Positions 1 through 1,793 of a stretch of 64,000 nucleotides of DNA are shown here, one piece after another (position 1 is the stretch's first letter; each line of letters begins with the position of its first letter). Under the pieces are notes generated by a model. It made no database searches, was not told where the DNA came from, and worked only from the letters and a program-made list of their open reading frames with translations. Origin of the DNA: Pelagomonas calceolata (lineage: Eukaryota); assembly GCA_918797485.1 (NCBI GenBank), contig CAKKNE010000003.1, positions 2,294,001-2,358,000 of the forward strand. Direction: 5' to 3'. The position numbers were made by a program, and so were the translations under genes.

Positions 1-1793
1 ACGAATACGCGGCGAAAGTTCTCCGCGTAGATCTCGTCGAGGCCCGCCGGCAGCGCCCCGACGCTCGCAAAGTCGATCTTGCCGCTCGTGGCCTCGAGCT
101 GGTCTGCGATGAGCCGCGCGTAGAGCATCAGTCCACCGGCCTTCCGTTCGAGCGAAGTGACAGCCGCGTCGAGCGCCGACGAGTTGAGACGCTCGGCAAT
201 AAACGCCTCCAGCGCGCCCGCCCCAACGCTCGTGCCCTCACACATCTTCGGTAGGGCCAATCGAATCACCTCGTACTGCTCGTGGGCGATGTGCTTGGCA
301 TCCGCGACGCTCTTTAAATTCAGCTGAACCTCGGCGAGATGTTTTCGGCCGTCGTCGAGGCGCACGCTGACGTTCAAATTCATGTCACGGTAGCCGAGCG
401 GCGTCGGACTGGCAAACTTGTTTTTTAATTGCGCGATCTCCAGCCCGAGGCCTCCACCGTCCAATTCAGTCAGCACCTTCAGTAGGTCGGCGGCGCTCTC
501 GAACAGGACCGTCGCGCGGGCTAGATCCCGAAACTTCTCGGGATGTGGCACCCCATTCCTGTCGGTGTACTTGTCCGCGAGCTTCCTTTCTGCGGATCCA
601 CGCCCTTTCACGCCCGGATCCGACACGTTGCCAGGGAGCGTCTTTAGCGCTTCGACCAAAACTGTCTGCGCCAGTGATGCGTCGGCGTAGAGCTTCTCAA
701 AGTCGGTCTCGTCTTGTACCAAGTCGAGACGTCGCTCCTTGTACTTCTCGAGCTCGTGAATCCCGGCGACGCCGCGGACCGCCTCGTCGTACGCGCCCTT
801 TGACCGGCGCAGCGGGTCCTCGAGGTCTGCGAACGTGTCGAGATTCTTCAAGCCCGGGAACTTCGCCTCGACTTCGTGCCGCAGCGACTCCATCGTCACC
901 TCGAGCTCGACGTGTTCCTTCGCGAGTACCGTCAGGTACGCCCTCACGTCCTGCCGGTTCCGCGCCTCGTCGACGCGCAGCTCCGACGGCGTATAGCCCT
1001 TTAGTGCAGCCTTGATTTGTGCTTCGTCGCGGCTCGTCACGACAAGTTTAATCCACGGCGGCAGCGTCTTGAGCTCGGTCGCGAGCAGCGATAACACTGG
1101 TTGCAGCGCGTCCCGCGGCAGCTCGTCGAGCGCGTCTATGATTAATACGAGGGCGTCGTCCGCGCCGCGGGGCGCCTCGACCTCTCGCAGCGGCTTGGCT
1201 ACTAAAGCCTCGAAGAGCTCGTCGACCTTGTCGGTCTCGACGCCCGTGCTCTCTTTCAGCGCGTCCTCGAAACCCTCCACCGTCGCGCAAAGCATGCCCG
1301 CCAGCGACCGCAGGAGCACCGCTGGAGCGGACCGCGCCGGCTCGGTGTGCTTGCAAAAGTGCCACGCCGCGACGTTCTCTTTGTCGAGCAGCCGTGCCAG
1401 CAACTCGGCCGCAGCGACGCTCTTGCCCGTGCCGCCGCCACCCACAAGCCAGAAGAGCTTCGCAGCTTCCGGCTCCGTGCGCCAGCGCATGACCGCCTCG
1501 AAGACCCATTCGCGCGTGCCGGGAAGGTGCTGCCCGCGCTTCTCGTTTACGATTGCCGAAAAGTCCAGCGTCTCCGCAACGCCGGAGCGGTTGGTGCCGT
1601 GGAGCTTTTCGTAGAGCGCCTCGGAGATCGCGGCCCTGGCCTCGGCGTCCTTCCAGCATTGTATTGCCTCGTCCCTGGAAATCTTGGCTTCCGCGAACTT
1701 CTGATCCCACGCGGGCTGCCACTTGGCGCCGGCCAGTTCCTTCGCCTCGGCAAGCGAGACCTCTGCCGGCAGAGATGATACGCCGCCGCCCAT
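1..1793 (-). CDS. NACHT-domain (NLR/STAND-like) protein with inserted RelA/SpoT-like nucleotidyltransferase domain; 3'-truncated by window edge
   Basis: Hand translation from ATG at 1793 (MGGGVSSLP...) stays open to position 3. It contains GTREWVF, Walker A FWLVGGGGTGKS (GGGGTGKS at 1442-1419), HFC, Walker B LIIDALDE (~1145-1122), VVTSR, NRQDVRAYL (959-933) and KAGGLMLYA (143-117). RelA/SpoT-like motifs lie at ~260-620. Confidence 0.85.
   Translation of the reverse strand, partial: MGGGVSSLPAEVSLAEAKELAGAKWQPAWDQKFAEAKISRDEAIQCWKDAEARAAISEALYEKLHGTNRSGVAETLDFSAIVNEKRGQHLPGTREWVFEAVMRWRTEPEAAKLFWLVGGGGTGKSVAAAELLARLLDKENVAAWHFCKHTEPARSAPAVLLRSLAGMLCATVEGFEDALKESTGVETDKVDELFEALVAKPLREVEAPRGADDALVLIIDALDELPRDALQPVLSLLATELKTLPPWIKLVVTSRDEAQIKAALKGYTPSELRVDEARNRQDVRAYLTVLAKEHVELEVTMESLRHEVEAKFPGLKNLDTFADLEDPLRRSKGAYDEAVRGVAGIHELEKYKERRLDLVQDETDFEKLYADASLAQTVLVEALKTLPGNVSDPGVKGRGSAERKLADKYTDRNGVPHPEKFRDLARATVLFESAADLLKVLTELDGGGLGLEIAQLKNKFASPTPLGYRDMNLNVSVRLDDGRKHLAEVQLNLKSVADAKHIAHEQYEVIRLALPKMCEGTSVGAGALEAFIAERLNSSALDAAVTSLERKAGGLMLYARLIADQLEATSGKIDFASVGALPAGLDEIYAENFRRVF

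What the first reader, a model, noticed from the sequence alone, without database searches (positions are those of the whole stretch)
1..1793. NLR-like NACHT protein with a RelA/SpoT-like nucleotidyltransferase inserted inside its NOD module
Seen: an unlisted minus-strand ORF (ATG 1793, open to the edge) with a full NACHT core. Between NRQDVRAYL (959-933) and KAGGLMLYA (143-117), two parts of the helical domain that normally lie a few tens of residues apart, there are about 260 extra residues. These carry PGVKGRGSAERKL, RDLARATV, LKNKF...GYRDMNLNV, EVQL and HEQYE. Known: this motif order matches the RelA/SpoT synthetase-like nucleotidyltransferase fold, and RelA_SpoT-like domains occur as N-terminal effectors of fungal NLRs. 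Inference: this is an algal innate-immune or cell-death switch in which NOD activation gates alarmone-like second-messenger or toxic pyrophosphokinase activity. I do not know the internal-insertion architecture from characterised NLRs.
Basis: partly seen in the sequence, partly recalled or inferred. Interest (0 to 1): 0.85.

Follow-up and report, generated by a model that had tools for sequence, protein, structure and literature searches.

The report
Alarmone enzyme inside algal immune switch
A marine alga carries an expressed NLR-like switch protein with a bacterial toxin-type alarmone-synthetase domain inserted inside its nucleotide switch, an arrangement shared with other algal groups, which likely makes the stress nucleotide (p)ppGpp outside the chloroplast when triggered and would arrest an infected cell.

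Summary
The minus-strand ORF (1793 to the window edge, 597 aa, no stop) is a NACHT/NWD-type STAND protein whose helical domain 1 is split by about 240 extra residues. The insert models confidently as a RelA/SpoT synthetase (SYNTH) fold, and the NACHT halves rejoin around it. PolyA reads cover it without splice joints. The same layout recurs in Pelagomonas, Triparma, Prymnesium and many unnamed marine relatives, followed by WD40 or ankyrin repeats, with invariant catalytic residues. Its motifs, including an invariant Asp in syn3, match the two guanine-only enzymes better than the adenine-only ones, so (p)ppGpp is the likelier product. Activity, gating by the NACHT switch and an immune role are all untested. 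Fungal NLRs with N-terminal RelA_SpoT domains are known; I found no paper on an internal insertion or on this algal family. New variant of a known kind; interest 0.8.

The parts
3..1793 (-). 5' part of an intron-less NACHT-SYNTH-(WD40) gene, 597 aa in the window, open at the edge
   Evidence: RNA; full-length relatives of 1,289-1,944 aa
1776..1793 (-). MGGGVS start: Gly2/Ser6 N-myristoylation pattern (consensus recalled, not predicted with a tool)
   Evidence: sequence; the same pattern opens 24 of the stored proteins, two of them only because they start at Walker A
1599..1769 (-). small helical N-terminal module (residues ~9-65), no Pfam match; varies among relatives
1029..1520 (-). NACHT nucleotide-binding domain: Walker A GGGGTGKS (1442-1419), Walker B IIDALDE (1142-1122), sensor-1 VVTSR (1043-1029)
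912..968 (-). helical domain 1, first helix (residues 276-294)
714..908 (-). insert, helical stalk (residues 296-360), outside the SYNTH core
240..707 (-). insert, RelV/EAS-type alarmone-synthetase (SYNTH) domain, residues ~363-518: K396, K404, D423 (527-525), R426, N458, D470 (386-384), N472, E488 (332-330), Q490, H504
177..239 (-). insert, return helix (residues ~519-539)
3..176 (-). helical domain 1, remainder (residues 540-597) with KAGGLMLYA and LPAGL
1794..1900 (-). transcribed leader; read depth ends at about 1880-1910

Best explanation
This is an expressed NWD-type NACHT (STAND) protein of a Pelagomonas-like alga with a RelV/EAS-type alarmone-synthetase domain inserted between the first and second helices of helical domain 1, which likely works as a sensor-gated enzyme that would make (p)ppGpp from ATP and GTP/GDP outside the plastid and arrest the cell. 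Shown: the architecture, the fold (as a model), expression of the gene family without splicing, and conservation of the catalytic residues across stramenopile and haptophyte relatives. Inferred, step by step: (1) the Gly2/Ser6 start tethers it to a membrane from the cytosolic side; (2) WD40 or ankyrin repeats, which vary faster than the NOD, sense a ligand; (3) the ADP-bound closed form keeps the enzyme off, and ADP/ATP exchange swings the winged helix and sensor relative to NBD-HD1, which carries the enzyme, and frees it, so the output would be read from the conformational switch rather than from clustering of N-terminal effectors; (4) the product is (p)ppGpp; (5) GTP drain plus alarmone stops growth, as an abortive defence against viruses or other invaders.
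For: AF2 model of the 597 aa: mean pLDDT 90.3, pTM 0.83. MalT aligns across model residues 71-587 with 234 aligned residues (Z 14.6, rmsd 3.9), so the NACHT halves rejoin. The insert alone models at pLDDT 95.2; all 27 top VIA rows are RSH synthetases (SAS1 Z 14.7, rmsd 3.6, 151 aligned; Tas1 Z 13.2, rmsd 4.0, 152 aligned, 29% identity, the highest), and the next folds score Z <= 6.7. K396, K404, D423, R426, N458, G467, D470, E488, Q490, Y507 and R511 are invariant in 47 of 47 NACHT-associated domains and in 26 of 26 after removing >=70% duplicates; an Arg sits at exactly one of positions 400/403 in 47 of 47. Walker A is intact in 41 of 45 insert-bearing proteins, and the other 4 are fragments that lack that part. 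VpEAS, shown to make only (p)ppGpp (PMC12691689), has DLARAT, KNRF..P, GYRDLN and AEVQLHLK..AD.K against DLARAT, KNKF..P, GYRDMN and AEVQLNLK..AD.K here. The A. azurea toxin that is very likely AaEAS (G-only) also has GYRD and scores 67 bits with the algal profile, against 52.5 for Tas1. ppGpp made in yeast inhibits growth (PMC5527313, abstract). Sensors are 46-85% identical among pelagophyte paralogs, against 76-100% for NBD and WHD windows.
Against: No activity, product, location, ligand or phenotype was measured. The Asp-means-guanine rule rests on 2 G-only enzymes against 3 Gly-type ones, and swapping syn motifs did not switch specificity in Apk2 (PMC12226406). The insert also carries the published (p)ppApp signatures (syn2 RxT, syn3 xxN, no syn4 IR), and Tas1 is the best solved match by sequence. 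The identity of AaEAS with L026/L032 is inferred, not matched by accession (one search missed). The same domain is also fused to ion channels, transporters, EF-hands and a UBC domain in other eukaryotic proteins, which fits general signalling as well as defence. Conservation counts come from hits chosen by similarity to the query. Reads cannot be assigned to this copy alone, because paralogs are 85-98% alike.
Confidence: 0.55

Rival explanations
1. Same gated switch, but the output is (p)ppApp, as in Tas1/Apk1 and Apk2, killing the cell by ATP/ADP depletion (or both alarmones, as SaEAS).
For: Tas1 is the best solved match by profile (E 1.5e-14; 5e-13) and has the highest structural identity (29-30%). 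R426/N472/E488/Q490 correspond to Tas1 R330/N370/E382 and the Gln after it. Syn2 RxT and syn3 Asn are the published Apk signatures.
Against: The G-only VpEAS has the same RxT and Asn and in addition shares the syn3 Asp and the KN(R/K)F..P strand, where Tas1 has GYSG. RelV/VpEAS have no entry among the PDB hits, so the PDB ranking could not show them.
Confidence: 0.17
2. An active alarmone synthetase used for housekeeping or stress signalling (nutrient, energy, dormancy), with the STAND module as a regulator, not for defence.
For: Transcribed in polyA libraries of one sample and in marine metatranscriptomes. Related domains are fused to channels, transporters and EF-hands. Hydrolase-only RSHs are reported in Aureococcus and Emiliania (PMC3153485), which would allow reversible signalling.
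Against: The family is multi-copy with dispersed loci, variable sensors, swapped N-termini, two insert types in near-identical frames and many truncated or frameshifted copies, the pattern of NLR-like defence genes, though some broken copies may be assembly errors. The closest bacterial relatives are toxin tips.
Confidence: 0.14
3. The insert is an integrated sensor or decoy that binds a nucleotide or a pathogen protein and trips the NLR, with no catalytic output.
For: It sits inside the switch, and it is exchanged or diverges as a unit (35-80% identity against 84-98% in the NBD windows), as sensors do.
Against: Metal- and phosphate-binding residues are invariant over lineages about 35-45% identical, with Arg400/403 compensation. 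The proteins already have repeat sensors and have no constant N-terminal effector.
Confidence: 0.08
4. It pyrophosphorylates another acceptor, such as tRNA 3' ends as in CapRel/FaRel2.
For: CapRel aligns at Z 12.3-12.4.
Against: Identity to CapRel is only 14%, CapRel/FaRel2 are absent from the profile hits, and the motifs match nucleotide-acceptor enzymes.
Confidence: 0.05
5. An assembly chimera, intron or separate nested gene.
For: No whole genome is held for the window; many assembled relatives are fragmentary.
Against: One open frame; the same order in 27 independent proteins; a complete transcript-derived ORF (P0003); no splice joints in 8 runs laid.
Confidence: 0.01

Closest known systems
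Fungal NLRs with an N-terminal RelA_SpoT domain (Dyrka et al. 2014, PMC4986451, passages read)
   Same: NACHT plus WD40/ANK sensor joined to a RelA/SpoT synthetase domain as presumed enzymatic effector.
   Different: There the domain is N-terminal to the NOD; here it interrupts helical domain 1. Pfam RelA_SpoT does not detect this insert. Whether the fungal domains belong to the same SYNTH subfamily was not tested.
RelV of Vibrio cholerae / VpEAS and AaEAS: exported (p)ppGpp synthetases (PMC12691689)
   Same: Motif-for-motif match in syn1-syn4, including GYRD; 41% identity over 158 aa and 36% over 162 aa to unnamed bacterial proteins that look RelV-like by eye.
   Different: Those are bacterial, exported by Sec or T7SS and unregulated; this one is eukaryotic, embedded in a STAND protein and has no immunity gene beside it. 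Eukaryotic domains form their own branch.
Tas1/Apk1 and Apk2 (p)ppApp synthetase toxins (PDB 6OX6; PMC10083569, PMC12226406)
   Same: Best solved match by sequence profile; same fold and same catalytic Asp, Arg, Asn, Glu; Tas1 is called a divergent RelV-subfamily homologue (PMC7229694).
   Different: Syn3 is GxN in Apk enzymes and DxN here; Apk enzymes are T6SS- or phage-delivered toxins.
NWD/TLP1-like NACHT-WD40 proteins (HET-E/D type; NPHP3_N family)
   Same: NPHP3_N NBD, intact Walker motifs, GxP-like helix pair, WD40 or ANK repeats, multi-copy family with diverging sensors.
   Different: About 240 residues inserted in HD1; no HET, HeLo or similar N-terminal effector in the window protein.
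Plastid long RSHs of algae (PMC3153485, PMC6881373, passages read)
   Same: Alarmone-synthetase fold in a red-plastid alga.
   Different: No hydrolase domain, no plastid presequence evident, different SYNTH subfamily.

Membership tests
NACHT STAND NTPase (NWD/TLP1-like) | NACHT NBD with Walker A, Walker B and sensor-1 | tested here: met
   Pfam NPHP3_N E 7e-25, NACHT above its cut-off; motifs
NACHT STAND NTPase (NWD/TLP1-like) | Helical domain 1 packed on the NBD | tested here: met
   In the model, MalT and Avs3 align across residues ~70-587, skipping the insert; model only
NACHT STAND NTPase (NWD/TLP1-like) | Winged helix, HD2 and C-terminal repeat sensor | tested here: inconclusive
   Beyond the window edge. 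Present in 79-90% identical relatives; read ends past position 1 continue into the residues that follow in P0003 (hand-translated)
NACHT STAND NTPase (NWD/TLP1-like) | Ligand-triggered nucleotide exchange and oligomerisation | not testable with these tools
   needs biochemistry
RelA/SpoT SYNTH domain | SYNTH fold | tested here: met
   Z 14.7, rmsd 3.6, 151 aligned to SAS1; Foldseek top 33 hits at E<=0.001 led by RSH synthetases
RelA/SpoT SYNTH domain | Catalytic Asp (syn2) and Glu (syn4), two syn1 lysines | tested here: met
   D423, E488, K396, K404 in 47 of 47
RelV/EAS-type synthetase | GxK..R...K, DLARxT, GYRDxN, ExQLH/N motif set | tested here: met
   Compared by eye with the printed VpEAS alignment; the window copy has Ser400 with Arg403 in place of Arg400
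RelV/EAS-type synthetase | Export signal or secretion domain | tested here: not met
   Embedded in a NACHT protein: works like, is not, an exported synthetase
RelV/EAS-type synthetase | (p)ppGpp synthesis | not testable with these tools
   needs an enzyme assay
Apk (p)ppApp synthetases | syn3 GxN signature | tested here: not met
   DxN; D470 in 47 of 47; signature from PMC12226406
Apk (p)ppApp synthetases | syn2 RxT and loss of syn4 IR | tested here: met
   RAT and QLN; shared with the G-only VpEAS, so not diagnostic
Fungal RelA_SpoT-NLR | RelA_SpoT domain N-terminal to the NOD | tested here: not met
   Domain lies inside HD1
Long RSH (Rel/RelA/SpoT, plastid RSH) | HD hydrolase domain before SYNTH | tested here: not met
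   The NACHT NBD precedes the SYNTH domain; no HD match

The most novel reading that the evidence does not exclude
Marine algae of at least two supergroups captured a bacterial exported alarmone toxin once, built it into the moving core of an NLR, and use it as a ligand-gated cytosolic (p)ppGpp synthetase for abortive immunity: a natural eukaryotic stringent-response-like death switch, and an NLR design in which the effector is an exchangeable cassette read out by the ADP/ATP conformational change instead of by N-terminal clustering.
Probability: 0.35. Interest if true: 0.93.

Novelty: new variant of a known kind. Interest (0 to 1): 0.8.

Why it matters
Whether eukaryotes make and use (p)ppGpp outside plastids is a long-open question; this family offers an intact, expressed candidate enzyme with a built-in on/off switch that can be assayed directly in E. 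coli or yeast. It would also extend NLR design: effectors normally sit before the NOD, and here the enzyme sits inside it. The hosts (pelagophytes, haptophytes, Parmales) are abundant marine algae whose intracellular defences are poorly known (own knowledge). The domain also appears in many other eukaryotic fusions that Pfam mostly misses, so a whole eukaryotic branch of RelV-type synthetases may be unannotated.

Tried and rejected
No whole genome is held, so the gene could not be extended or its copies counted in its own assembly; the exact 597-aa fragment is not in the protein collection. Pfam, NCBIfam and single-sequence PDB search do not detect the insert (YwaC only at E 0.44). My first reading, (p)ppApp because Tas1 ranked first, was lowered after the VpEAS and A. 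azurea motifs were seen. A complex prediction of the insert against the C-terminal 731 aa of P0003 gave no answer (score 0.02, alignment not used) and says nothing either way. The accession look-up of the A. azurea protein missed, probably because its GTG start was read as Val. The large domain tree (158 rows, quick) left the backbone unresolved and did not group NACHT-embedded domains apart from other eukaryotic fusions; many 'other' rows are fragments. A first-match regular expression for syn3 was noisy and was not used. Eight metagenome loci share only the gene with the window, not its neighbours. Five viral loci found with a bacterial alignment are phage-type fusions, not NACHT forms. Searches of earlier scan notes found nothing on this family.

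Full report
Observation. Pfam gives NPHP3_N at 92-255 (E 7e-25), NACHT at 114-263 and a weak AAA-lid match at 537-590, and nothing for the insert. Among the 47 stored proteins in which both helical-domain flanks could be placed, 45 have a spacer of 258-326 aa (263 here) and 2 insert-less relatives have 21 and 23 aa, so about 240 residues are extra. The window holds only the NBD and helical domain 1.

Structure. AlphaFold2 with 91 sequences gave mean pLDDT 90.3 and pTM 0.83. MalT aligns over model residues 71-587 with 234 aligned residues (Z 14.6, rmsd 3.9) and Avs3 similarly (Z 14.4, rmsd 4.0, 244 aligned), so the two halves of the NOD rejoin, while small alarmone synthetases align to 363-518. 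The insert alone (64 sequences) models at pLDDT 95.2. Its top 27 VIA rows are all RelA/SpoT synthetases, from Z 14.7 down to 7.2, and other polymerase-beta folds follow at Z 6.7 or less (Foldseek agrees). Residues 296-360 form a helical stalk that these searches barely test.

Expression. Three polyA runs of one sample gave 144, 90 and 167 reads on 1-2800. Depth runs from position 1 to about 1880, with one empty bin in one run, falls to zero at 1975-2068, has the strand bias expected for a minus-strand RNA, and shows no splice joints. A fourth run of that sample (30 reads) and three contig sets also show no joints. Some reads come from paralogs. A complete transcript-derived ORF of 1,376 aa (P0003, 85% identical) holds NBD, insert, winged helix and WD40 repeats in one frame.

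Distribution. Of 35 longer relatives, 27 have the same order, 2 are fragments and 6 lack the insert. Named carriers are Pelagomonas calceolata (77-84%), Prymnesium parvum (42%) and Triparma laevis (36%); most others are unnamed. Sensors are WD40 or ankyrin repeats, and N-termini vary (ubiquitin-like plus endonuclease/phosphatase, EF-hands, or a short module after a Gly2/Ser6 start). On a quick tree the 29 insert-bearing NBDs lie on one side of a branch against 8 insert-less ones (SH-aLRT 95; long outgroup branches), which fits one insertion event. Pelagophyte paralogs carry two insert types in near-identical frames: against P0002, one type is 82-98% identical across residues 301-550 and the other 35-80%, while the NBD windows of that second type are 84-98%; the drop follows the insert boundaries. 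Eight metagenome loci show intron-less copies in different surroundings.

What kind of synthetase. The insert finds 994 representatives at E<=0.001, of which 150 were listed. Its bacterial relatives are fused to VgrG, eCIS-core, phage-portal-like and T7SS-type domains, the exported-toxin class described in PMC3482391 (passages) and PMC12691689 (text part 2, section 9, passages, supplement searches and one supplement part). A family profile ranks Tas1 first among solved proteins (E 1.5e-14; 52.5 bits with the NACHT-rich profile), and PMC12226406 (parts 1-3 of 4) gives syn2 RxT and syn3 GxN as (p)ppApp signatures. However, VpEAS, which makes only (p)ppGpp, shows DLARAT, GYRDLN and AEVQLHLK, almost the same as DLARAT, GYRDMN and AEVQLNLK here (I take the strain's only listed entry, Q87Q55, to be VP1295). 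An A. azurea toxin with GYRD scores 67 bits with the same profile. It is the only match in that genome and the only A. azurea entry in the paper's hit list, so it is very likely the G-only AaEAS, although the accession was not matched. Among these characterised enzymes, syn3 Asp goes with guanine-only activity and Gly with adenine or mixed activity. That is a small sample and my inference, and motif swaps failed to change Apk2 specificity. D470 is invariant here (47 of 47). The other catalytic residues are invariant too, and an Arg is present at exactly one of positions 400 and 403 in 47 of 47 domains, as expected of a working active site. A careful tree of 46 domains splits 29 presumed eukaryotic from 17 bacterial and phage domains (100/97, LG+G4; three long rows left out; labels of unnamed rows assumed from their fusions). 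With those rows in, a quick mixture-model tree gave only 87 and misplaced them. No donor is claimed.

Mechanism. From established STAND biology (own knowledge): NBD and HD1 move as one body against the winged helix and sensor when ADP is exchanged for ATP. An enzyme mounted on HD1 would be shielded in the closed form and freed in the open one. The bacterial relatives are toxic when unregulated in cytoplasm, so some restraint is needed, and no immunity gene flanks this one on the side visible in the window (the upstream gene is a glyoxalase-family enzyme). ppGpp made in yeast inhibits growth and Mesh1 reverses it (PMC5527313, abstract only). Hydrolase-only RSHs are listed for Aureococcus and Emiliania (PMC3153485, passages). 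Gating, product, location and role are all inferred. I give 0.55 to gated (p)ppGpp defence, 0.17 to (p)ppApp, 0.14 to non-defence signalling, 0.08 to a decoy, 0.05 to another acceptor and 0.01 to artefact.

Novelty. [quoted passage not shown] Searches for NACHT with RelA_SpoT, alarmone, ppGpp, algae, pelagophytes or haptophytes (listings only unless named) returned no paper on an internal insertion or on this algal family. The bacterial survey's supplements hold none of the 14 eukaryote names and codes I tried. Passages of PMC7229694, PMC6881373, PMC10083569 and the bacterial NLR preprint 10.1101/2022.07.19.500537 do not mention it. The library lacks most subscription papers, and the preprint's supplementary table of NACHT architectures, which includes eukaryotes, was not seen and could list it. 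Verdict: real, conserved, apparently undescribed; new variant of a known kind; interest 0.8.

Noticed in passing
window 2119-2700 (-): Upstream gene: glyoxalase-superfamily enzyme (Pfam Glyoxalase_4, E 4e-20), expressed; looks like methylmalonyl-CoA epimerase (recalled). Not conserved beside other copies of the NACHT gene.
   Followed up: partly
proteins P0087, P0135, P0144, P0145, P0156, P0123, P0176: The same RelV-type synthetase domain, catalytic residues intact, is fused to EF-hands, a BCCT transporter, an ion channel (a dinoflagellate protein), a ubiquitin-conjugating domain, LRRs or TPRs: a wider, mostly unannotated eukaryotic family.
   Followed up: partly
P0006-P0009, P0201 against P0001-P0005, P0202: Two insert types in near-identical NACHT frames, with sharp boundaries at the insert ends: cassette exchange or gene conversion of the flanks.
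   Followed up: partly
P0023 residues ~933-1112: WD40 repeats up to 39 of 40 identical within one protein, like the highly conserved internal repeats of fungal allorecognition NWD proteins (recalled).
   Followed up: partly
P0205; L009-L012: Phage-type proteins (portal-like HI1409 family in P0205) ending in a GYRD-type synthetase domain: possibly virion-borne (p)ppGpp toxins, parallel to MuF-Apk2.
   Followed up: no
P0224: A pelagophyte paralog in which unrelated sequence of similar length replaces the insert between the HD1 parts; may be a misassembly or gene-model error.
   Followed up: no
window 5555-7705 (+), 8173-9399 (-), 9737-13069 (+): Ordinary-looking neighbours by eye: DEAD-box helicase, protein kinase, dynein-heavy-chain-like ORF (labels recalled, not searched).
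   Followed up: no
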